A stretch of DNA of 64,000 bases from Candidatus Cloacimonadota bacterium (lineage in GTDB: Bacteria > Cloacimonadota > Cloacimonadia > JGIOTU-2), in NCBI GenBank assembly GCA_049903315.1, contig JBNGBT010000007.1, forward strand, positions 6,561 through 70,560. The letters are read 5' to 3'. Shown here in pieces: positions 462-13,908 of this stretch; the stretch's first letter is position 1, and the number at the start of each line of letters is the position of its first letter. Made by a program: the position numbers and the translations under genes. Below the pieces are notes generated by a model that was not told where the DNA came from, searched no databases, and saw nothing but the letters and a program-made list of their open reading frames with translations.

Positions 462-1079
462 ATGCATCGTAATAGTCAAAGGAGAGTATATGGAGATCAA
501 ATTTATTTCATTACGAGTAGGGTAGAAGGTGAGTACAAATTTTTTAAACATCAAACTTTATGTGATGTTTGGATTCAAGAGTTGAGATTAACCAAAGATG
601 TTACACATATGAAATTATTTACTTTTTGTTTGAATTATGATCATTTTCATTTGTTAATAAAACCAGACATTACCGAAGCAAATTATTCGAAAATTATGCA
701 ATTTTTGAAACGCCATTCATCACGAAATATTAATATCATTTTGGGTTACAACAAACGATCAAACGAAGGCGATATTGGCCAATATCGCCTTCAAAATAAA
801 ATAAATAATGCGCATTATCGCCTTCGGAATGAATTGAAAAAAATCGATGAGTATGTTTTGAAATTGCGTGAATCGTTCAAACAAATATATGGAAAAAACC
901 ATGATATTCCCAAATTTAAATGGCAAAAATCATTTTTCGATCATGTGATACGAAATAAAAAAGATTTTGTAAAACATTTCAATTACACAATGTACAACTT
1001 TCTTAAACATGAATTGCCTGAAAAATGGAAATATACCGGACTTAGATATCATGATTTATTAGATGAATTCATTGAGTAA
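462..1079 (+). CDS. IS200/IS605-family Y1 (HUH) transposase, REP-associated tyrosine transposase (RAYT)-like
   Basis: HUH motif DHFHLLIKP and a C-terminal block WQKSFFDHVIRNKKDFVKHFNYTMYNFLKH resembling RAYT/IS200 TnpA; 205 aa; no tnpB partner and no obvious flanking GC-rich palindromes. Confidence 0.75.
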   Translation: MHRNSQRRVYGDQIYFITSRVEGEYKFFKHQTLCDVWIQELRLTKDVTHMKLFTFCLNYDHFHLLIKPDITEANYSKIMQFLKRHSSRNINIILGYNKRSNEGDIGQYRLQNKINNAHYRLRNELKKIDEYVLKLRESFKQIYGKNHDIPKFKWQKSFFDHVIRNKKDFVKHFNYTMYNFLKHELPEKWKYTGLRYHDLLDEFIE

Positions 1080-2300: not shown

Positions 2301-2340
2301 AATATCCAATATCCAACAAGGAATATCCAATTACGAAGGA
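2301..2340. repeat. Intergenic ~40-nt element AATATCCAATATCCAA(C/A)AAGGAAT(A/T)ATC(C)AATT, copy 1
   Basis: Near-identical to 8104-8143 (tandem ATATCCA heptamers followed by GGAAT-ATCCAAT); both copies are intergenic. Confidence 0.4.
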
Positions 2341-2505
2341 GAAAGAAAAAAGCTCATAACCAAGATATCTTTTAATATTCGAGTATATTGTTTCAGAATA
2401 AGAAAAGAGAGCAATCTACAATGCTGGAGAGAAAATCCAATTGTGTGAAAAAAAATAATTACTTCTCATTCCTCAGGAAAGCTTTCGTGATTTTATCGTA
2501 CGTTA

Positions 2506-3833: not shown

Positions 3834-5285
3834 GTGGTCAGTTGGGCTGCTCCATATAACGTAATTGGCATCGATCCTCAACTCATCGATCCTGAAAATG
3901 GCGATTATCGAGTAACTCCCGGTTCGCCTTCTGAGGGTTACGGATGCCAGATATTTCCAATTGAAAGAGCACATTCTTATAAAAAACCTAACCCAATCAT
4001 TATTCCATATAAAAATATTGAGTACAACAACTCAATTGAAGTGTCAGGAATCATTGATGAACATACAACCTGGCAGGCAGACACAGTAAAGGTAATTGGA
4101 GACATCGAGATTGTGGAGCAGATAATTCTCACAATTGTAGCCGGCACAAAGGTTGAATTTCAGAACTTCTATTCTATTGACTGTAAGGGGTGTATTCGAG
4201 CGATAGGGGGAGATGATGAGCGAATTCTCTTTACCTCAGTTCATCCTGAACTCTTTGTCCCAGATTCATCATTAACTGGCGCATGGAATGGTATCAGGTT
4301 TCATAACACATCTGCACTAAATGAAAAATCGATCTTTGCGTATTGTGAGTTTGAATATTCAAAAGTGTTTGGAGATTCTATAAAAGGCGGCGTACTCTCA
4401 TTCTATAATTTTTCAAAAGCGCGTGTTGTGAATTGTTTATTTACACAGAATGTCGCAGACTACGGATCAGTAATTGGTCTTGATTATCAATCATCTCCTG
4501 AAATTATTGATTGTATTTTTACTAAGAACTATGCTTTCGTCGGTGGTTCACCAATCTATAGCGCGTACTCGTACCCTCGCTTGATTAATAACACAATGAT
4601 CGATAACTATGTACTGAATGAAGATATAAATTATAGAACCGGGGCAGTCCAATCTTTTATCTCAAAACCACAGATTACCAATAACATAATTAGGGATAAT
4701 GTGACGGATTATCTCGATCCGGGACAGCTTGCTGAGTGCAAGGATTATTATACAACTTTTAACAACATTGAATTCGGGCATGGGGGAGAGAGCAATATTG
4801 ATGAAGATCCCTTCTTTAGCTATTCAGGAGAATATCCCTATTCCTTGCTGCAGTTTTCCCCATGTATAAATGCCGGAACACCGGATACAACAGGTTTGTT
4901 TCTTCCTCTCTCAGATTTTGCTGGAAATGAGAGAATATATAATAGCAGGATCGATATCGGCGCATTCGAGTGGCAGGGCTATGCTGTTGATCCTGAAATT
5001 CCTGATGAAACACCATTTGCATGCTATCCCAATCCTTTCTCGAACTCGACAGCCCTTCAATTATCAACAACCACAGAGCACACAGAGCACATTGAGATTA
5101 AAATATTTAACATTAAGGGGCAGCTTGTCCGTAATCTCCCCCTCACATCTTCTCCTCTTCACTCCATCGAGGCTATGTGGGATGGGAAAGATGAGAAGGG
5201 GAAAGAAGTGTGTGACGGGATATATTTTATTAGATGTAAAGCCCACAATCAGTTTTTAACTCAGAAGATTTTAAAGATTTACTAA
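3834..5285 (+). CDS. Beta-helix-like protein, C-terminal part with T9SS C-terminal sorting domain; likely 3' half of the interrupted gene
   Basis: Same frame as 3138-3821; GTG start with no RBS and no signal peptide; C-terminus (YPNPFSN...IKIFNIKGQLV...GIYFIR) is a T9SS CTD; the PCINAGTPDTTGL...RIDIGAFEWQG module matches the paralog at 43629-45980. Confidence 0.62.
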   Translation: MVSWAAPYNVIGIDPQLIDPENGDYRVTPGSPSEGYGCQIFPIERAHSYKKPNPIIIPYKNIEYNNSIEVSGIIDEHTTWQADTVKVIGDIEIVEQIILTIVAGTKVEFQNFYSIDCKGCIRAIGGDDERILFTSVHPELFVPDSSLTGAWNGIRFHNTSALNEKSIFAYCEFEYSKVFGDSIKGGVLSFYNFSKARVVNCLFTQNVADYGSVIGLDYQSSPEIIDCIFTKNYAFVGGSPIYSAYSYPRLINNTMIDNYVLNEDINYRTGAVQSFISKPQITNNIIRDNVTDYLDPGQLAECKDYYTTFNNIEFGHGGESNIDEDPFFSYSGEYPYSLLQFSPCINAGTPDTTGLFLPLSDFAGNERIYNSRIDIGAFEWQGYAVDPEIPDETPFACYPNPFSNSTALQLSTTTEHTEHIEIKIFNIKGQLVRNLPLTSSPLHSIEAMWDGKDEKGKEVCDGIYFIRCKAHNQFLTQKILKIY

Positions 5286-5605
5286 GCAAAGTATCATTGG
5301 ATAAGTATCTTGTCACAAGTCGAAGAGCTTGTGATAAGTAATTTTCAGGTTTTACAACTTAAGACATACTCTCCACCTCGTCTCAATATACAACGCTACT
5401 AAGCAGCGGACAGGTCTCAAATTTTACTTTAGTATTTTAAATAAATTTGACAACAAAGGAAGGAAATTAATAAAAAGAATAAGAATTGAAGAGCATACTA
5501 TTTTTACTATTGAAATTGAGAGGAAATAGATGTGGAAACATGGAAAGATTTTATGAAAGAAACTAAAAGCAAAATCCACGCAATAGTGCGCAGATACCTA
5601 CAAAT

Positions 5606-6628
5606 TTGGTTGTATCATTGCAATATATATCCAATCATGCGTGGACTCAGACATTACGTGAAAAAAGTTTTTATAGGAGAATGATACAAAATATATCAAG
5701 GAGACATCATTTTGTTTCTGAATTTTACTTAAATGGATTTACAGAGATATTAAAAAAGAATAAAGTTCTGAATGTTTTTGATTTAGAAGAGAAAAAATAT
5801 TTTAAGACTTCTCCAGATAACGTTGCTGTAATTCGTGATTTTAATAAGTTAAGTGTTGAAAATACTGAACCTGATATCTTGGAAAAAATTATCTCAGAGC
5901 TGGAATCAAAAGTTGCTGAAGTAATAAAAAATATAAATCTAACTCACACTCTACCAAAAGGTGAAGATTTAGAAATTCTATACAATTTCATTGCATTATT
6001 CACTTGCAGGAATCCAATACAAAGAGAAATTATAAACAAATATATTTCCGATGTTTCCAACAAAATGTTAGATAATATTTATAGGTCTAAAGAAAACTGG
6101 GAAGCGTTTCATGATGAAATGAGAAAGAAAGGGCATGATGTTGATCCAAATGCAAATTACGATGACTTGAAAGCGATAGTCAAATCTGGAAAATCGAAAT
6201 GGAAAGCATCCAACAACCTAATGTTTAAACTTGATATGACAAGTATGAATGCAGTTATACATACTTTGCATTATCGAAAATGGAAATTAATTTCTAATGA
6301 TTCTAAGTTAACACCATTTATCAGTAGCGATAATCCTGTTTCACTTTATTGGACACATAATTTTAAAACTCAATATCCGCCAGGTTTTGCAATGCCTAAT
6401 ACAGAATTAATATTTCCTTTATCAAAATCCTTAGTTTTGTCAGGTACTTTTAATGATAATCCTCTAATTATTAATGCTAATCAAATGCAAGTTGCAATAA
6501 TAAATAGTAACATAATAAGTTCAGCAAATAGATTTATATTTAGCTCAAAAAAGGATTTTAAATATTTAAGTAAAAGTAATAAAATTTTATCAAGTTCTGA
6601 ATTACTAAGAAATCGCTCAAATAATTAG
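5606..6628 (+). CDS. DUF4238-like protein (hypothetical), on an AT-rich islet
   Basis: N-terminal motif RRHHFVSEFYLNGF resembles the DUF4238 signature (HH[YF][VI]PQFYL..F) and a later SSDNPV block. Start uncertain: TTG at 5606 or ATG at 5681. Very AT-rich, with ~300-bp non-coding flanks. Confidence 0.5.
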   Translation: MVVSLQYISNHAWTQTLREKSFYRRMIQNISRRHHFVSEFYLNGFTEILKKNKVLNVFDLEEKKYFKTSPDNVAVIRDFNKLSVENTEPDILEKIISELESKVAEVIKNINLTHTLPKGEDLEILYNFIALFTCRNPIQREIINKYISDVSNKMLDNIYRSKENWEAFHDEMRKKGHDVDPNANYDDLKAIVKSGKSKWKASNNLMFKLDMTSMNAVIHTLHYRKWKLISNDSKLTPFISSDNPVSLYWTHNFKTQYPPGFAMPNTELIFPLSKSLVLSGTFNDNPLIINANQMQVAIINSNIISSANRFIFSSKKDFKYLSKSNKILSSSELLRNRSNN

Positions 6629-6938
6629 AGAGAATTTATTGTATCGTAATAGTATCAAGAGTTTCTTTATAGTTATGCAGTATTATTCAAGATTTTTTCA
6701 CGTAACATGCGTGTCGTCAGTAAAGTTGATCAGTGTTTTTTGTCTGAACCTTCCGGTTCAGGGTTTAGCTGTGTGTTCAGGCTGAATCATTCTGATTCCG
6801 CCGCGCATGCCAAACATTAGCCTGCATTGCATACTGAGGAAATCAATTCTGAGAAGGTAACGGATATTGTTTTATAATAGCAACAATCAATAGGTGTATT
6901 GCTATCACACTGATCAAATCGTAATATGTTCTGAAATA

Positions 6939-8072
6939 CTACGGCAAAAACTGCAGAGGATCATACGCTCGTCCATCGAGACGCACTTCAAAATGCACAT
7001 GAGCGCCGGTAGTGTTGCCTGTCAATCCAACCTTCCCAATGATCTCACCCTTTTTAACTTTATCATCTTTATGAACAAGATTTTCCTGGTTATGTGCATA
7101 CACGGTCATAATGCTGTTGGCATGTTTGAGAATGATCACATTGCCGTAGCCGCGCTGTTTGCCGGAATAGGCAACTTCACCATCGAGGACAGCTTTAAGC
7201 GGAGTTCCTTCTGGACAGGCAATATCGAGTCCTTTATGGGGCTTTCCGTCACGTGTGCCGAACCCCGAAGTGATCTGTCCTGTACAGGGCCACATAATGC
7301 CGTATTTTTGGAATTCGGACTTCTTTATAACCGGTTTGGGAATAATATATTTTGAATTATCATCCTTTGACTGCGTTTCGAGATAGAGCTTCTGTCCCAC
7401 AAAAATATTACTTGAACTCAAACTATTATAGTTTTTCAATTCGTAAATAGAGAGACCGTAAGTCGAAGCAATTCTATAAAGTGTTTCACCCTTTTTTACT
7501 ACATGGTATTTGGGTTTTTTTATTTGCTTCGCTGGTTCTTTTAGGACTTCTGTTTTAGTTTGAGTTTGTGTGGGCTGCTCGATTTTTTCCGGCTCATATT
7601 CCTGAACTTGAGTTGACACAAGAGGAGTCTGTCCGGGTGTACCTTTCAAAAGTAATTTCTCTCCCGCTTTTATCGTATAAGACGTAAGTTGGTTCAATTC
7701 CATCAATTGCTCGATAGGAACATCATAAATCTTGGAAAGCCGGTATAATGTTTCACCTTTTTGTATCACATGATAACCGGAAGAGGGAATTTCTTTTTTT
7801 GTTACATAATATTGTTGTGGATGTTCTTTATTATGGAGGTATATTTTTTGCCCAATGAGAATTTTGTCTGAAGTAAGATTATTTATTCTTTTTAGCGCAT
7901 CGACAGTTGTACTGTATTTCTTTGCGATAGAATAGAGTGTGTCGCACTTTTTCACTATGTGGTAGTCATCGGACTCGGTAATATATTTTGGATTGGGAGA
8001 AAATCCCAGAAGAGAAAAGCACAATAATAGTATAATGAGTGTCGTTGGTTTGATCATAAATTGAATCCGCAT
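6939..8072 (-). CDS. LysM-domain M23 family metallopeptidase (murein hydrolase)
   Basis: Signal peptide; three LysM repeats (YH[IV]VKKG[DE]TLY...); C-terminal M23 motifs HKGLDIA, GYGNVIILKH, HVHFEVR. Confidence 0.88.
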   Translation of the reverse strand: MRIQFMIKPTTLIILLLCFSLLGFSPNPKYITESDDYHIVKKCDTLYSIAKKYSTTVDALKRINNLTSDKILIGQKIYLHNKEHPQQYYVTKKEIPSSGYHVIQKGETLYRLSKIYDVPIEQLMELNQLTSYTIKAGEKLLLKGTPGQTPLVSTQVQEYEPEKIEQPTQTQTKTEVLKEPAKQIKKPKYHVVKKGETLYRIASTYGLSIYELKNYNSLSSSNIFVGQKLYLETQSKDDNSKYIIPKPVIKKSEFQKYGIMWPCTGQITSGFGTRDGKPHKGLDIACPEGTPLKAVLDGEVAYSGKQRGYGNVIILKHANSIMTVYAHNQENLVHKDDKVKKGEIIGKVGLTGNTTGAHVHFEVRLDGRAYDPLQFLP

Positions 8073-8103
8073 ATTTAAACCTGAAGTTCCAATGTCCTCA
8101 AAG

Positions 8104-8143
8104 AATATCCAATATCCAAAACGGAATTATCAATTTCCAATGA
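8104..8143. repeat. Intergenic ~40-nt element, copy 2 (see 2301-2340)
   Basis: GAATATCCAATATCCAAAACGGAATTATCAATTTCCAATGAG; a partial inverted copy CATTGGATATTG lies at 8325-8336 in the same intergenic region. Confidence 0.4.
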
Positions 8144-8375
8144 GTAAATATTTTTGTGGGAGAGTTCAATTTTATTTTGTTTAATATGCATTTTTCTTTT
8201 ATGTAGTTTCTATGCTTTTAAAGATGATTGAGATCAATTCATCGTTCTCTTGTAATAAAAGGGTTAATTTTGTCTTATTATCTCTTCTCTTTTTTTCCTT
8301 CATAATTGGGCGTTCCTTGCTGGACATTGGATATTGTGTCCACTTGCCCATATAATTGAAGTTATAAAAAGAAGT

Positions 8376-8648
8376 TTAGTAAGTAATCTCAAATGAATCA
8401 TATTCAATTTGTTCCGGGTCTTCTTCAATCGTGATATCATCAATGCGTGCTGCAGGAGGTCCTAATTTAATTTTATCTAAGAAAATTTGCAGATTCGGCG
8501 AATCGCCTTGTGCTTCGATCTCTACATCGCCGTTATACAGATTCTTAGCATACCCATGTATGCCGAAGTGACGTGCATTATATGCAGCAAAATATCGAAA
8601 TGATACGCCTTGTACAACGCCTTTTACAATAATATGTAATTTTCTCAT
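8376..8648 (-). CDS. acyP: Acylphosphatase
   Basis: MRKLHIIVKGVVQGVSFRYFAAYNARHFGIHGYAKNLYNGDVEIEAQG... matches the acylphosphatase fold signature (VxGxVQGVxFR, GxxxN). ATG at 8648 lies 1 nt after the stop of the upstream gene; the listed ORF starts at a TTG further upstream. Confidence 0.85.
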   Translation of the reverse strand: MRKLHIIVKGVVQGVSFRYFAAYNARHFGIHGYAKNLYNGDVEIEAQGDSPNLQIFLDKIKLGPPAARIDDITIEEDPEQIEYDSFEITY

Positions 8649-8649
8649 A

Positions 8650-11556
8650 TTACTCAAAAACAATTATCTGAGGTCGAACGACACCAGCTCGGATCTGGGT
8701 GTGTCCGTTCATATATATTTTTTTATTCTGATATTCTTTAAAGAAATTTTCATAGACGGCATTCATTCTGAAATTGCCAAAACCTTCTGTCAATATTATC
8801 GGAAATGGTATGCTTTCGTTACCTGTGAGAGCAACACCGATCTCCTCTCCAAGAAATTCTACAAGGTCTTTATTATCTATTGATGGTGCGATAACACCTG
8901 CGACATCCTTCTCCGCACATGTTTTCAGGAAGTCATAGGAAATCTTATTGAAGCATATAAGAATTTTATCATGATACGTTGCTTTCTCATATAGAACAGG
9001 TTCATGAAAAATCTGCATATTGCTTGTTCTCTCACTCCCGAATCCTATAATTCCGTTGAGTCGGCTTCCAATATATTGTATGGTTGCGGATAGGTTTTCT
9101 TCCACATCAATTACTTTTCCGCACACATTTGCATAGATACGAAATGGCTCATTCTTGTATTGAATTGTAACTGTGCCCTTATCTGCATCAATGTTTGTAA
9201 TTACTCCGGATGTAGGAGCAGGTATCACATGACTGAAATCCTTTTCAAGACGCGATGCAAGTGGTTCGTATGTTTCTACAAAATCTCCCTCGCGTTTTTT
9301 GAGATATCCTTTGATATGCTTCGGATTTATTTTGAGTTCTTTTGCTATTTTGACCGTAAATGGCTTTGTAGAATAATCCTGGATTTCACGCAATATTATT
9401 GTTCCGGTCTCAAAGTTGATATGTTCGATCTTGCCACGGACAGGTGTTCGATACTCTCCGACTTTACCGGAAAATGCAGAGATCATACCTCGGTCGGAAA
9501 TCTCGATTATTTTTTGATTGAATTTTACCGATTCACCTTCCTTCACAAGCATGCTCTTTTCCATCAGTTCCGGATTGAGATCGAGATAGTCCATTGTGAA
9601 AAGCGAAAGCACGTAAATTTTGGGTGGAGCATATTTATTTTCACCGATGAGAGTATCAGGCGTCACTTCTTCATCTTTTGTAACAAAAATATTTCCTGAA
9701 TAGGGGAGTTCTCTTTTGATCGCATAGGTGCCGGTCTCAATTTTTTTATTTTCTATATATGATGAAAAACACTCCTCGAGAGCTATTGCGGGATTTCCCA
9801 AATCAAAAAGTTTCAACTCGCTATTGTATTGCTTGATGGAAGTATTATCACGAAAACGCGTATCAGCTAATATTGCCTGGTCAGTCTCAAACGTATATTC
9901 ATGATCATTATTTCCCAGAGAAAAGCCCTTTTCCAGATTAATAATAATTTTCTGAAGAGTATTATTTTCGTTTGGAAAATATTTTAATGAATTTGATAGT
10001 ATCGTATGAGATTCGCTTCCAATAATAATTTCCATTACTTTCTGACCGGCTTTCATCTTTTGGAAGATCGGGCGGATGCACATGCCGATTTTTTGATAAC
10101 ATTCTTTATGAAGAAGTTCGGATGCAAGTTCGCTATTCACTTCGCTTAATTTTCCTAAATGAGGTGAAATAAAATGATTGTCGCGCCAGATTTCGGTAAT
10201 TCCTTCTGGTTTGAGTCCATCGCAAATGGTAATTAAAGCATGTGTGCTCGATGGAGCATTTGAGAGCACTCCACCTGCACCTATCATGATGCCGATATCT
10301 TTCATATGAAAGGATCGTTGTTCCTGAAGTTTTTCCACATAGAAGCATTCCAGGAATTTATCAAAATCCGTATGTTTCAATCTGTCGAGGAATCCGATTT
10401 TCTGTGTATTAAAATGCATCTTCATATGATGCCTTATGGACATTTGTATCGCTTCGCGCGCAGTTGCGTGTTCAATAGCTGTTTGGGTATCATCTTGCGG
10501 GATGTAAAGAGGATAGAGCATTTTGTTTGAAATATAATTTCTTATATAGTGCTCATCCAGACTCTCGGGCAGCCATCTTTGAATCTTCTCAAAAGTAGCA
10601 TCTTTCATCACGTTTGAAATACTGTAACTCATCCCATAATTTGCACTTACTGTTCGATAATATTTGCCCATTATGTTTGAGAACACATCCGTTGTTGCAC
10701 CGCCAATATCCACTGAAATGATATTTTTCCCCATTTGTTTGCTTATCAGCCGAAGTGCATTTATAACTCCTGAAGGAGTTGGAATGATAGCGTCAGCAAC
10801 AACCTTTTTCAATGAGCCATAACCCGGTGCCTGCTCCATTACATTATCCATAAAGAGCTGATGTATTTTTTCCTGTGCTGGAGGAAGATTTTCATCCTGC
10901 AGGGTCGGGCGGATATTCGGCACTATGTAGAGTTGAAATTTCTCGGAAAAGAGGGATTGAATGAATGACTGGGCATCTTTGTTGCCGGCATATACAAGTG
11001 GGATTTCGGTTTTATCACCGAATTTTGGTTTTGGGTGTGCTAATGAAAGCAGCTCTCCCATGCGTACGATACTGCTGATATTTCCACCATCTGTTCCGCC
11101 GGAGAATAGAATAATATCAGGTCGCAGTAAGCGTATGAGCTGCATCTTCTCAACAGGAGTCCGGTTATCATTGATCGCAAAAGTATCGAGGATCACTCCG
11201 CCGGAGCCGTACGCAGCACGCTTTGCACTGCTTGCAGAATCAAAAAGTGTGAGACCAAAGACAAGTATCTGCAAGCCACCACCGGCGCTGCTCGTTGTTA
11301 AATAGAGAGTGTCTTTATTAAACCGAAGATTTTCTGAAGTAGAATCTTTATCCAAAAGTTGTATATCAGTGGCTTTTTCTATATTTTGTATGGAGTTGAA
11401 AATGCCGATTTTCACATCTTCTTGTGGACGTTCAACCGTTGTGCCGACATTTTGTAATGCAGTGAGTGTGTAGGACTCACTTCCTTTTTGAAAAAGGACC
11501 GCTTTGGTTGTTGTGCTACCAATATCTGTAATAAGAATATTTTTCTTAGTAATCAT
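8650..11556 (-). CDS. GlmL/MutL-family (hydantoinase-like ASKHA) ATPase fused to a C-terminal partner domain, 968 aa
   Basis: N-terminus ILITDIGSTTTKAV and a second phosphate motif VDIGGATTDVFS (ASKHA). Co-linear homology to the split pair 56503-58401 + 58411-59535 (STSSAGGGLQ, LRPDIILFSGGTDGG, IHQLFMDNVMEQAPGY, RTVSANYGMSYSISNV; C-terminal ILTEGFG, GHTQIRAGVVRPQII). Confidence 0.75.
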   Translation of the reverse strand: MITKKNILITDIGSTTTKAVLFQKGSESYTLTALQNVGTTVERPQEDVKIGIFNSIQNIEKATDIQLLDKDSTSENLRFNKDTLYLTTSSAGGGLQILVFGLTLFDSASSAKRAAYGSGGVILDTFAINDNRTPVEKMQLIRLLRPDIILFSGGTDGGNISSIVRMGELLSLAHPKPKFGDKTEIPLVYAGNKDAQSFIQSLFSEKFQLYIVPNIRPTLQDENLPPAQEKIHQLFMDNVMEQAPGYGSLKKVVADAIIPTPSGVINALRLISKQMGKNIISVDIGGATTDVFSNIMGKYYRTVSANYGMSYSISNVMKDATFEKIQRWLPESLDEHYIRNYISNKMLYPLYIPQDDTQTAIEHATAREAIQMSIRHHMKMHFNTQKIGFLDRLKHTDFDKFLECFYVEKLQEQRSFHMKDIGIMIGAGGVLSNAPSSTHALITICDGLKPEGITEIWRDNHFISPHLGKLSEVNSELASELLHKECYQKIGMCIRPIFQKMKAGQKVMEIIIGSESHTILSNSLKYFPNENNTLQKIIINLEKGFSLGNNDHEYTFETDQAILADTRFRDNTSIKQYNSELKLFDLGNPAIALEECFSSYIENKKIETGTYAIKRELPYSGNIFVTKDEEVTPDTLIGENKYAPPKIYVLSLFTMDYLDLNPELMEKSMLVKEGESVKFNQKIIEISDRGMISAFSGKVGEYRTPVRGKIEHINFETGTIILREIQDYSTKPFTVKIAKELKINPKHIKGYLKKREGDFVETYEPLASRLEKDFSHVIPAPTSGVITNIDADKGTVTIQYKNEPFRIYANVCGKVIDVEENLSATIQYIGSRLNGIIGFGSERTSNMQIFHEPVLYEKATYHDKILICFNKISYDFLKTCAEKDVAGVIAPSIDNKDLVEFLGEEIGVALTGNESIPFPIILTEGFGNFRMNAVYENFFKEYQNKKIYMNGHTQIRAGVVRPQIIVFE

Positions 11557-13544: not shown

Positions 13545-13618
13545 TGGCTGGGGTGCAGGGATTCGAACCCCAATAGGCAGATCCAGAGTCTGCTGTCTTG
13601 CCATTAGACGACACCCCA
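13545..13618 (-). tRNA. tRNA-Gln (anticodon CUG)
   Basis: Reverse complement TGGGGTGTCGTCTAATGGCAAGACAGCAGACTCTGGATCTGCCTATTGGGGTTCGAATCCCTGCACCCCAGCCA; 7-bp acceptor with U1-A72, anticodon stem GCAGA/TCTGC, loop CTCTGGA, T-loop TTCGAAT, encoded CCA. Confidence 0.8.
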
Positions 13619-13630
13619 TGGTTAAAAAGT

Positions 13631-13705
13631 GGCTGGGTCGGGAGGATTCGAACCTCCGAATGCAGGGACCAAAACCCTGTGCCTTGCCGCTTGGCGACGA
13701 CCCAC
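13631..13705 (-). tRNA. tRNA-Gln (anticodon UUG)
   Basis: Reverse complement TGGGTCGTCGCCAAGCGGCAAGGCACAGGGTTTTGGTCCCTGCATTCGGAGGTTCGAATCCTCCCGACCCAGCCA; closely resembles bacterial tRNA-Gln; loop TTTTGGT gives anticodon TTG. Confidence 0.85.
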
Positions 13706-13717
13706 ATTTCTATAAAT

Positions 13718-13809
13718 GGCGGAGAGGCAGGGATTCGAACCCTGGGTAAGATGTTACTCCTACACACGCTTAGCAGGCGCGCACCTTAAGCCAACTCGGT
13801 CACCTCTCC
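13718..13809 (-). tRNA. tRNA-Ser (anticodon GCU)
   Basis: Reverse complement GGAGAGGTGACCGAGTTGGCTTAAGGTGCGCGCCTGCTAAGCGTG...GGTTCGAATCCCTGCCTCTCCGCCA; class II tRNA with a long variable arm; anticodon loop CTGCTAA. Confidence 0.85.
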
Positions 13810-13822
13810 AAAAAGAACAAAA

Positions 13823-13908
13823 TGGCGGAGGATGAGGGACTCGAACCCCCAAGGGCAGAGCCCGGCGGTTTTCAAGACCGCTGCCTTACCAATTAGGACT
13901 AATCCTCC
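13823..13908 (-). tRNA. tRNA-Ser (anticodon UGA)
   Basis: Reverse complement GGAGGATTAGTCCTAATTGGTAAGGCAGCGGTCTTGAAAACCGCCGGGCTCTGCCCTTGGGGGTTCGAGTCCCTCATCCTCCGCCA; anticodon stem GCGGT/ACCGC, loop CTTGAAA, long variable arm. Confidence 0.85.

What the first reader, a model, noticed from the sequence alone, without database searches (positions are those of the whole stretch)
5286..6900. AT-rich single-gene islet with a DUF4238-like protein
A lone gene between ~300-bp non-coding flanks, noticeably more AT-rich than the neighbouring genes. The protein carries an HHF-x3-FYLxGF motif near the N-terminus and an SSDNPV block that I recognise as DUF4238-like. Composition and isolation suggest horizontal acquisition; a role in defence is a possibility I cannot verify from sequence alone.
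Basis: partly seen in the sequence, partly recalled or inferred. Interest (0 to 1): 0.5.

Follow-up and report, generated by a model that had tools for sequence, protein, structure and literature searches.

The report
DUF4238 phage-defence gene in variable hotspot
The AT-rich lone gene is a real, intact DUF4238 protein, a relative of a single-gene anti-phage system shown to work in E. coli, and it sits in a slot where related Cloacimonadota genomes carry restriction-modification and other defence genes instead; it is a new member of a known but mechanistically unsolved family.

Summary
A 315-aa ORF (5681-6628, +) lies between 395-nt and 310-nt gene-free flanks and has the lowest GC (0.273) and GC3 (0.194) of 43 ORFs in the window. 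It matches Pfam DUF4238 end to end (E 3.7e-40) and PADLOC DUF4238-Pers (E 1.3e-53). It is 31% identical over its full length to the P2-prophage DUF4238 protein whose family member blocks T7 in E. coli.

The host is a Candidatus Cloacimonadota bacterium. No other species-level relative whose sequence reaches this slot has the gene there. The slot between a conserved ~200-nt element (5446-5653) and the 3' end of a LysM/M23 peptidase gene instead holds Type I, II or III restriction-modification, SoFic, RhuM-like or unknown genes. An 83%-identical copy sits in a distant Cloacimonadota lineage beside two integrases and a Type IIG enzyme.

Horizontal acquisition and a defence role are therefore well supported, but neither was tested by experiment. 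The mechanism is unknown. A very confident model (pLDDT 95.5) has no relative among solved structures. Invariant His/Glu/Arg/Asp residues suggest an enzyme.

Verdict: a new member of a known kind, of moderate to low interest. The side finding is a cassette-like hotspot structure.

The parts
5309..5338 (+). Terminator-like hairpin after the upstream T9SS-tail protein gene (3834-5285)
   Evidence: The terminator scan gives a 12-pair stem followed by TAATTTT. It is single-copy in the window. Stretches of 28-33 nt similar to window 5292-5324 lie next to the LysM gene end in L012 and L016.
5446..5653 (+). Conserved hotspot element (left border of the variable slot). It starts with TTGACA (5447-5452), then N18, then TAAAAA, and ends in ...GACATTA
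   Evidence: 81-87% nt identity with L012, L015 and 11 metagenome contigs. nhmmer finds one full copy per locus and one in the window. The first cargo gene follows on the same strand in all 8 variants. It is not a structured RNA: RNAalifold gives -9.4 kcal/mol and the single-sequence z-score is -0.35. There is no Rfam hit. The promoter reading is inference.
5553..5684 (+). Short ORF (43 codons, MKETKSKIHAIV...) inside the element. Its TGA (5682-5684) overlaps the DUF4238 ATG (5681-5683)
   Evidence: The ORF is open in 8 of 8 element variants (31-46 codons), while the other two frames carry stops. There is no third-position excess (variable sites 14/11/14 by codon position; 51 synonymous against 260 non-synonymous differences), so coding is unproven. 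It has no PHROG or NCBIfam hit.
5636..5650 (+). Left copy of an imperfect 15-nt direct repeat, CATGCGTGGACTCAG (right copy at 6706-6720, CATGCGTGTCGTCAG)
   Evidence: the repeat finder family D6, 80% identity. Both copies lie just outside the inverted-repeat arms. The statistical support is weak taken alone; by my own estimate roughly 10% by chance without the positional constraint.
5649..6715 (+). DUF4238 cassette: the DNA shared with the copy in a distant Cloacimonadota genome (L006, GCA_053986275.1)
   Evidence: blastn gives 85.0% identity over 1067 nt, and the similarity stops at these ends. The gene has GC 0.27-0.29 in all four contexts, while the flanks vary from 0.28 to 0.38.
5654..5666 (+). 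Left arm of a 13-nt perfect inverted repeat, TTACGTGAAAAAA, 14 nt upstream of the ATG. AGGAG follows at 5675-5679
   Evidence: The inverted-repeat score is 13 against a shuffle maximum of 12 (0 of 200 shuffles reach it). The repeat is kept in L006. In L056 both arms are changed together (TTATGTGAAATTT / AAAATTCACATAA). It is absent in L057 and in the E. coli phage versions.
5681..6628 (+). DUF4238 protein gene (315 aa), candidate single-gene anti-phage defence
   Evidence: Family: Pfam PF14022 E 3.7e-40; PADLOC PDLC03000 E 1.3e-53; PHROG 29785 E 1.2e-50. Homology: 31% identity, E 1e-58, to the phage pro483 / P2-hotspot protein. Residues: all family-conserved residues are present (H9 H10 Y16 E68 E75 R110 S216 D217 P219 P246). 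Selection: dN/dS is 0.16. Structure: AF2 pLDDT 95.5.
6693..6705 (+). Right arm of the inverted repeat, TTTTTTCACGTAA, 64 nt after the stop codon
6696..6826 (+). GC-richer 3' module (GC 0.47) with two local hairpins (6744-6761 and 6780-6802), ending in AACATTAG
   Evidence: It aligns with the spacer after the first cargo gene of L069, L067 and L010. The DNA fold z-score is -2.3 to -3.0 in the window, but the L069 counterpart is not significantly structured. The terminator scan flags 6744-6768. Its role is unknown.
6829..6938 (-). Conserved 3' flank of the LysM/M23 gene (right border of the variable slot)
   Evidence: 80-82% identity with L015 and L066.
6939..8072 (-). LysM x3 + M23 peptidase gene, the conserved right anchor of the hotspot
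   Evidence: Pfam LysM 8.2e-42 and Peptidase_M23 6.9e-34. It is 88-94% identical in L010, L011, L012, L015 and L016. dN/dS is 0.05.

Best explanation
Window 5681-6628 encodes an intact, horizontally acquired member of the DUF4238 family, working as a stand-alone anti-phage defence protein.

What is shown:
- Family membership is established.
- The gene was gained at this slot. The slot is a variable hotspot in a Candidatus Cloacimonadota chromosome. It is bounded on the left by a conserved ~200-nt element (5446-5653) and on the right by the 3' end of a LysM/M23 peptidase gene. Other species carry restriction-modification, SoFic, RhuM-like or unknown cargo there.
- An 83%-identical cassette occurs in a distant lineage next to integrases and a Type IIG enzyme.
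- The protein is under purifying selection and keeps every family-conserved residue.

What is inferred:
- The gene is transcribed from the promoter-like start of the element.
- Its translation is coupled to the short upstream ORF through the ATGA overlap.
- The protein is a self-contained sensor and effector whose invariant His9-His10, Glu68, Arg110 and Asp217 form a hydrolytic, probably metal-dependent, active site.
- On phage infection it is activated and stops phage replication, possibly at the cost of the cell (abortive infection), as its E. coli relative does against T7.

Rough probabilities: defence function about 0.7; enzymatic effector about 0.4; substrate unknown.
For: Family membership:
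- Pfam full-length hit and PADLOC DUF4238-Pers hit.
- 31% identity, E 1e-58, over residues 4-309 to the phage pro483 protein. That protein lies between the replication nickase and the portal gene of a P2-like phage. It shares at least its first ~66 residues with the pFR101 insert, which gave strong T7 resistance.
- The conserved residues are kept.
- dN/dS is 0.16.

Acquisition:
- The gene is absent from the slot in L010, L011, L012, L015, L016 and L017, although the right-hand synteny is conserved.
- It has the lowest GC of 43 ORFs.
- The cassette 5649-6715 is 85% identical in L006. L006's ClpB is 77% identical to that of L034. L034's MutL-like protein is only 51% identical to the window's.

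Hotspot cargo in relatives:
- L012: Type III R-M.
- L016: Type III restriction enzyme plus a PDC-S05 fragment.
- L060, L064, L070: SoFic plus Type I R-M.
- L062: RhuM / PDC-S05.
- L063: Type II R-M.

Neighbours of close homologues:
- L006: Type IIG R-M.
- L056: AbiEi/AbiEii.

Mobile-element carriage:
- 24 plasmid records, 16 of them predicted conjugative.
- P2-like phages of E. coli and Stenotrophomonas.
Against: - No experiment exists on this protein or on any Cloacimonadota phage.
- Identity to the validated protein is only 31%. The family is huge (30,764 clusters at 50% identity), so not every member need be a defence gene.
- Three of the eight hotspot variants carry no recognised defence genes: a 755-aa unknown, a 1108-aa T9SS-like protein, and the MacB-like permease that comes first in L060.
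- The promoter and translational coupling are read from sequence only. AGGAG lies only 1 nt from the ATG.
Confidence: 0.7

Rival explanations
1. The gene is the passenger, or the selfish payload such as an addiction toxin, of a small mobile cassette bounded by 13-nt inverted repeats. It persists because the cassette moves or is hard to lose, not because it protects against phage.
For: The perfect 13-nt inverted repeat sits at the ends of the DNA shared with L006. Both arms changed together in L056. An imperfect direct repeat lies just outside the arms. The overlap with an upstream short ORF resembles toxin-antitoxin operon layout. L006 lies next to two tyrosine recombinases.
Against: No transposase or recombinase lies near the cassette in the window: BLASTP of the two L006 integrases against window ORFs found nothing. 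The IS200-like ORF lies 4.6 kb away and is unrelated to the one in L060. The inverted repeat is absent from the 62%-identical L057 copy and from the E. coli versions. The E. coli relative protects as a single gene. The two readings are not exclusive.
Confidence: 0.15
2. It is an ordinary lineage-specific housekeeping or accessory enzyme of unknown role that happens to be AT-rich. Its placement among defence genes is coincidental.
For: The family has no assigned biochemical function (Pfam DUF; PHROG 'unknown'; no NCBIfam model). Some hotspot variants hold non-defence cargo such as ABC-type permeases and a T9SS-like protein.
Against: The gene is absent from the syntenic slot in every other species sampled. 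The same cassette occurs in a distant lineage. There is a strong match to a defence-system model and to a validated protein. Five of the eight variants defined by the left-border element, plus L016 (identified through its LysM/M23 anchor), hold recognised defence systems.
Confidence: 0.1
3. It is a decaying remnant, a pseudogene or non-expressed relic of a past insertion.
For: The Shine-Dalgarno spacing is poor: AGGAG lies 1 nt before the ATG. No independent promoter lies within the cassette; the scan finds no more promoter-like sites than shuffled sequence does.
Against: The reading frame is full length and matches the Pfam profile 1-281/281. All conserved residues are intact. dN/dS is 0.16 against L006. 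The locus is identical in a genome assembly (GCA_964530025.1, L086) and in contigs from five sequencing runs (L001-L005), although these are one clone and say little.
Confidence: 0.05

Closest known systems
DUF4238 single-gene anti-phage system of E. coli P2-like prophage hotspots (Rousset et al. 2022, PMC9122126; PADLOC 'DUF4238-Pers')
   Same: Same Pfam family and same PADLOC model. The size is the same (315 against 309 aa) and both are single-domain. Identity is 31% over the full length. The conserved HH...YL..F, E, R.P and SDNP residues are identical. Both are a single gene in a variable slot flanked by conserved genes.
   Different: The host is a Candidatus Cloacimonadota chromosome, not an enterobacterial P2 prophage, and no phage genes flank the gene. 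Activity is untested. It has its own leader element, overlapping short ORF and 13-nt inverted repeats, which the E. coli versions lack.
Chromosomal defence hotspots and defence islands bounded by conserved core genes (for example the P2/P4 hotspots of PMC9122126 and the Pseudomonas genomic-island hotspots of PMC12629846)
   Same: The borders are fixed: the conserved element on one side and the LysM/M23 3' end on the other. Between them lie mutually exclusive cargoes: DUF4238, Type I, II and III R-M, SoFic, and RhuM/PDC-S05.
   Different: The left border is a ~200-nt non-genic element, not a protein gene. The first cargo gene always follows it on the same strand at a near-constant distance. Half-copies of the element precede further cargo genes in two variants. 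The lineage is uncultivated, and none of the DUF4238 papers I retrieved describes such a hotspot in it; I did not search the literature for it specifically.
Integron gene-cassette arrays
   Same: They share a conserved upstream platform with a promoter-like start, promoterless single-gene cargo in one orientation, and a short shared junction core (ACATTA) at the end of the platform and of the 3' module.
   Different: No integrase lies next to the platform. The 3' module does not fold into one long attC-like hairpin, and its counterpart in L069 is not significantly structured. The core is not GTTRRRY. I do not file the locus as an integron.

Membership tests
Pfam PF14022 (DUF4238) | Whole-protein score above the gathering threshold, with the profile matched end to end | tested here: met
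   138.5 bits against a cut-off of 27; E 3.7e-40; profile positions 1-281 of 281.
Pfam PF14022 (DUF4238) | Family-conserved residues: HH near the N-terminus, Y-L-x2-F, an invariant Glu, R-x-P, S-D-x-P and a late Pro | tested here: met
   H9, H10, Y16, L17, F20, E68, E75, R110, P112, S216, D217, P219 and P246 are all present. In 257 aligned family members these positions are 81-100% conserved.
Pfam PF14022 (DUF4238) | Stand-alone protein of about 280-340 aa | tested here: met
   315 aa. Nearly all of the top 150 representatives are 290-340 aa (range 260-408). The longer members examined have no added Pfam domain.
DUF4238 anti-phage defence system (PADLOC / DefenseFinder, Rousset 2022) | Match to the system's protein model | tested here: met
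   PDLC03000 DUF4238-Pers, E 1.3e-53, 180.5 bits, profile positions 3-303 of 309.
DUF4238 anti-phage defence system (PADLOC / DefenseFinder, Rousset 2022) | Full-length homology to the experimentally validated protein | tested here: met
   31% identity, E 1e-58, residues 4-309 aligned to pro483 gp11. The pro483 N-terminus equals that encoded by the pFR101 insert from E. coli TA007. Only the first ~66 residues of the validated sequence could be read.
DUF4238 anti-phage defence system (PADLOC / DefenseFinder, Rousset 2022) | Protects cells against phage when expressed alone | not testable with these tools
   This needs cloning and phage challenge. It is known only for the E. coli member, against T7.
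DUF4238 anti-phage defence system (PADLOC / DefenseFinder, Rousset 2022) | Located in a variable or mobile region together with, or alternating with, other defence systems | tested here: met
   The same slot holds Type I, II or III R-M, SoFic or RhuM/PDC-S05 in relatives. Close homologues lie beside Type IIG R-M and AbiE.
Integron gene cassette | Adjacent integron integrase (intI) reading away from the array | tested here: not met
   The genes on either side are a T9SS-tail protein and a LysM/M23 peptidase. Two tyrosine-recombinase queries found nothing among the window ORFs. This is a BLASTP test of limited sensitivity.
Integron gene cassette | attC site: one imperfect hairpin of about 60-140 nt with RYYYAAC / GTTRRRY ends, 3' of the cargo | tested here: not met
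   The 3' module folds into two short local hairpins only. The L069 counterpart has z = +1.1. The junction core is ACATTA.
Rfam RNA families / tRNA-linked island | Known RNA gene or tRNA at the island border | tested here: not met
   No Rfam match with E <= 1 in 4800-8400. The nearest tRNA is at 13545.

The most novel reading that the evidence does not exclude
The slot is not a passive recombination hotspot but a cassette-exchange platform that has not been described. It would consist of three things. First, a conserved ~200-nt leader (promoter-like start, short ORF, terminal ACATTA core) at which unrelated single genes or operons are joined in one orientation. Second, repeat copies of the leader's 5' half, or a 3' module ending in the same core, between successive cassettes. 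Third, a DUF4238 cassette marked by co-varying 13-nt inverted repeats that has moved between distant Cloacimonadota lineages. Together these would imply a site-specific mechanism whose recombinase is not encoded nearby.
Probability: 0.15. Interest if true: 0.6.

Novelty: new member of a known kind. Interest (0 to 1): 0.35.

Why it matters
For the gene itself, this extends a validated but mechanistically opaque single-gene defence family into an uncultivated phylum. It also gives a very confident structural model with no solved relative and a short list of invariant residues to mutate (H9, H10, E68, R110, D217).

For the locus, it defines a defence hotspot with sharp, recognisable borders in Cloacimonadota. 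That hotspot can be mined in metagenomes for new systems: the 755-aa, 420-aa, 319-aa Clp-like and 410-aa proteins in the same slot are candidates.

None of this changes current understanding of phage defence. Its value is as a lead and as a catalogue entry.

Tried and rejected
- Known RNA or tRNA in the flanks: none found.
- The conserved 5' element as a structured RNA: rejected. The consensus energy is weak at -9.4 kcal/mol, the z-score is -0.35, and only 3 pairs show double changes.
- The short ORF as a clearly selected peptide: unresolved. It is open in 8 of 8 variants, but there is no third-position bias.
- att-type long direct repeats flanking the islet: none found beyond a 15-nt imperfect pair.
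- Sequence search of PDB with a 117-member profile: nothing.
- The AlphaFold database libraries were not available.
- Domain fusions in longer family members: none informative. One Mur-ligase 'fusion' holds only a 68-residue DUF4238 fragment.
- Link between the IS200-like ORFs of the window and of L060: none.
- The hairpin at 5309-5338 as a genome-wide REP: it is single-copy in the window.
- The 3' module as an attC-like hairpin: not supported.
- Within-species presence or absence: not informative. All six contigs carrying the identical protein are 100% identical to the window.
- Codon-preference score as an acquisition test: not discriminating in this AT-biased genome.
Full report
**1. What is in the sequence**

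Between a T9SS-tail protein gene ending at 5285 (+) and a LysM x3/M23 peptidase gene ending at 6939 (-) there is one substantial ORF. The mechanical ORF is 5606..6628. The ATG at 5681 gives 315 aa, which is exactly the public protein P0001.

The gene has GC 0.273 and GC3 0.194, the lowest of 43 ORFs in the window (mean 0.376, sd 0.038, z = -2.7). A sliding window shows 0.26-0.32 inside against 0.36-0.45 in the neighbouring genes. A codon-preference score is not atypical (z = +1.4), because the genome as a whole prefers AT-ending codons. No Rfam family (E <= 1) and no tRNA lies in the flanks.

**2. Family**

- Pfam PF14022 (DUF4238) matches from profile position 1 to 281 of 281: E 3.7e-40, 138.5 bits against a cut-off of 27.
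- The PADLOC defence model PDLC03000 'DUF4238-Pers' matches with E 1.3e-53.
- PHROG 29785 (unknown function) matches with E 1.2e-50. NCBIfam has no model.
- A profile of 117 relatives finds 30,764 clusters (50% identity) at E <= 1e-3 and 20,192 at E <= 1e-10. Nearly all are stand-alone proteins of 290-335 aa. Longer members carry no extra Pfam domain.
- Across 257 aligned members the conserved polar residues are H9 (93%), H10 (100%), Y16 (95%), E68 (100%), E75 (81%), R110 (95%), S216 (82%) and D217 (98%), plus P112, P219 and P246. All are present here.

**3. Link to an experimentally shown function**

Rousset et al. 2022 (PMC9122126) report that a single DUF4238 protein from a P2-prophage hotspot 'provides strong resistance against T7' and that its molecular function is unknown. 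The construct is pFR101, from E. coli TA007.

The only phage record in the collection with a relative is the P2-like Escherichia phage pro483. There the gene sits between the replication nickase and the portal gene. Its N-terminus is the same as that encoded by the pFR101 insert. The window protein aligns to it over residues 4-309 with 31% identity, E 1e-58.

Relatives also occur on 24 plasmid records, 16 of them predicted conjugative. One occurs in the P2-like Stenotrophomonas phage Smp131, found by fold comparison (E 5e-10, TM 0.56). None of the 18 papers in the library that mention DUF4238 has it in the title or abstract. In the three I checked I found no mechanism.

**4. Host and synteny**

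The neighbouring 968-aa MutL-like protein retrieves 47 loci, nearly all titled Candidatus Cloacimonadota. The best are 82-91% identical. In these loci the block NAD kinase - two ABC permeases - MutL-like - acylphosphatase - LysM/M23 is conserved. None has DUF4238 after LysM/M23, and what follows differs in each.

A genome assembly (GCA_964530025.1, L086) and contigs from five sequencing runs (L001-L005) carry the identical protein. All are 100% identical to the window, so they are one clone and say nothing about within-species variation.

**5. The slot is a defence hotspot with defined borders**

blastn shows that window 5403-5630, inside the '5' non-coding flank', is 81-87% identical to DNA in L012 and L015, on the far side of their inserts. 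A scan of metagenome contigs with its 31-nt core returned 11 further loci. An nhmmer model finds one full copy per locus and only one in the 64-kb window.

The element starts with TTGACA (5447-5452) and ends in ...GGAC..ACATTA. Nothing is conserved to its left or right. In all 8 distinct variants the first cargo gene lies on the same strand, beginning 115-130 nt after the core (237 nt in one variant).

| Variant | Cargo |
|---|---|
| Window | DUF4238 |
| L012 | Clp-fold protease-like 319 aa, Type III Mod, 420 aa unknown, Type III Res (9e-177 and 3.6e-127) |
| L060, L064, L070 | MacB/FtsX-like permease, SoFic (5.8e-47), Type I HsdM/S/R (1e-160, 3.3e-86, 1.8e-62) with an IS200-like gene |
| L062, L068 | RhuM / PDC-S05 (6.8e-140) and a cold-shock-domain protein |
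| L063 | Type II methylase (1.9e-76) and restriction enzyme (2.2e-38) |
| L015, L061, L065, L066 | 755-aa unknown |
| L067, L069 (the L010 type) | 1108-aa T9SS-like protein and 203-aa unknown |

L016, reached from the LysM side, has a PDC-S05 fragment and a Type III restriction enzyme.

The right anchor, LysM/M23, is seen in the window, L012, L015/L066 and L069. A more distant relative (L017, 65% MutL-like identity) has a compact LysM - thioredoxin/TPR - Cpn10 - DprA arrangement without the element.

**6. Evidence of transfer**

The DNA shared with L006 (GCA_053986275.1) is window 5649-6715, 85% identical. It stops within about 10 nt of the features described in section 8. In L006 the gene lies after two tyrosine recombinases and an S41 peptidase, and before a Type IIG restriction-methyltransferase (5.7e-146).

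L006's ClpB is 77% identical to that of L034. L034 is a Cloacimonadota genome whose MutL-like protein is only 51% identical to the window's. The two hosts therefore appear distantly related, while their DUF4238 proteins are 83% identical. This comparison rests on one marker and an intermediate genome.

Synonymous divergence points the same way. dS is 0.56 for DUF4238 (window against L006), against 1.0-1.2 for LysM/M23 between the window and its nearest species. The gene has GC 0.27-0.29 in four contexts whose flanks range from 0.28 to 0.38. The 63%-identical copy (L056) follows AbiEi/AbiEii, and the 62% copy (L057) lies near a caspase-like protein.

**7. Is the gene functional, and how might it work?**

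dN/dS is 0.16 against L006. That is purifying selection, but about three times more relaxed than for LysM/M23 at 0.05.

The invariant H10, E68 and D217, together with H9 and R110, come from all three parts of the chain. This pattern is what one expects of a catalytic, possibly metal-binding, site. That is inference: the tools do not return coordinates, so clustering in 3D could not be checked.

My working mechanism is a constitutively made, single-chain sensor-effector hydrolase that is activated by a phage cue and halts replication. I put defence at about 0.7 and the enzymatic effector at about 0.4.

**8. Fine structure of the islet (partly followed up)**

- The element contains a short ORF (5553-5684; MKETKSKIHAIV...). 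It is open in all 8 variants (31-46 codons), but substitutions show no third-position bias. The first 12 codons are almost invariant at the DNA level. Its TGA overlaps the DUF4238 ATG.
- The element is not a convincingly structured RNA.
- Half-copies of its 5' part precede further cargo genes in L062 and in L067/L069.
- A perfect 13-nt inverted repeat brackets the gene: TTACGTGAAAAAA at 5654-5666 and TTTTTTCACGTAA at 6693-6705. None of 200 shuffles reaches its score. It is kept in L006. In L056 both arms are changed together. It is absent in L057 and in the E. coli versions.
- Just outside the arms lies an imperfect 15-nt direct repeat at 5636-5650 and 6706-6720.
- The GC-richer 3' module (6696-6826) resembles the spacer after the first cargo gene in L069, L067 and L010. 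Like the element, it ends in AACATTA. It forms two local hairpins, not one attC-like hairpin.

These features hint at cassette-type exchange but do not prove it. Plain homologous recombination between conserved borders explains most of the data.

**9. Verdict**

This is a new member of a known, experimentally validated but mechanistically unsolved defence family, placed in a newly delineated Cloacimonadota defence hotspot. Interest is 0.35.

Noticed in passing
window 5446-5653 (also L012 21671-21858, L015 18049-18234, L060-L070): A ~200-nt conserved non-genic element marks the left border of the variable slot. It starts with TTGACA-N18-TAAAAA, contains a 31-46 codon ORF that is open in all 8 variants, and ends in ACATTA. 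The first cargo gene always follows on the same strand. Half-copies precede further cargo genes in L062 and in L067/L069.
   Followed up: partly
window 5654-5666 and 6693-6705; L006, L056: A perfect 13-nt inverted repeat brackets the DUF4238 gene at the ends of the DNA shared with a distant genome. In the 63%-identical copy (L056) both arms carry matching changes. An imperfect 15-nt direct repeat (5636-5650 / 6706-6720) lies just outside the arms.
   Followed up: partly
window 6696-6826; L069 7436-7570, L010 7568-7631: A GC-richer (0.47) intergenic module with two hairpins resembles the spacer after an unrelated first cargo gene in other genomes. It ends in the same ACATTA core as the 5' element.
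   Followed up: partly
L015 15004-15611 versus window 6829-7436: Candidatus Celaenobacter antarcticus carries a second ~600-nt copy (86.5% identity) of the 3' end of the LysM/M23 gene inside its hotspot. Together with the real gene end, it brackets a MarR plus two ABC-like genes. This looks like the footprint of an insertion that duplicated its target.
   Followed up: no
L012 17357-18619 (-), L012 20668-21627 (-), L015 15737-18004 (-), L011 14357-15589 (-): Four proteins occupy the same hotspot slot and could be untested defence candidates. They are a 420-aa protein with no hits, lying between the Type III Mod and Res genes. A 319-aa protein is weakly similar to SDH-family Clp-fold proteases. 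A 755-aa protein has no hits. A 410-aa protein has a weak PDC-S69 hit.
   Followed up: partly
window 462-1079 (+): A 205-aa ORF with a weak IS200-like Y1 transposase hit (E 2.5e-06) and low GC (0.286) lies directly upstream of DprA. It is present in the conspecific contigs. It might be a REP-associated (RAYT-like) or decayed transposase. It is unrelated to the IS200-like gene inside the Type I R-M of L060.
   Followed up: partly
window 5292-5338; L016 4332-4364, L012 14431-14458: The terminator-like hairpin after the T9SS gene has 28-33 nt near-identical counterparts. In L012 and L016 these lie on the other side of the hotspot, next to the LysM gene end.
   Followed up: no
window 2301-2349; L009 7368-7418, L010 4780-4813, L023 7525-7568: A short (34-51 nt) sequence downstream of DprA recurs at 82-91% identity in intergenic DNA next to the MutL-like/acylphosphatase genes of other Cloacimonadota. 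It may be a small dispersed repeat.
   Followed up: no
window 8650-11556 (-): A 968-aa protein combines a Pfam 'MutL' (PF13941, glutamate-mutase-associated type) domain with hydantoinase-like and weak biotin/lipoyl-like matches. It is highly conserved across Cloacimonadota and served well as a synteny anchor.
   Followed up: no
window 13545-13908 (-): A tight cluster of four tRNA genes: Gln-CTG, Gln-TTG, Ser-GCT and Ser-TGA.
   Followed up: no
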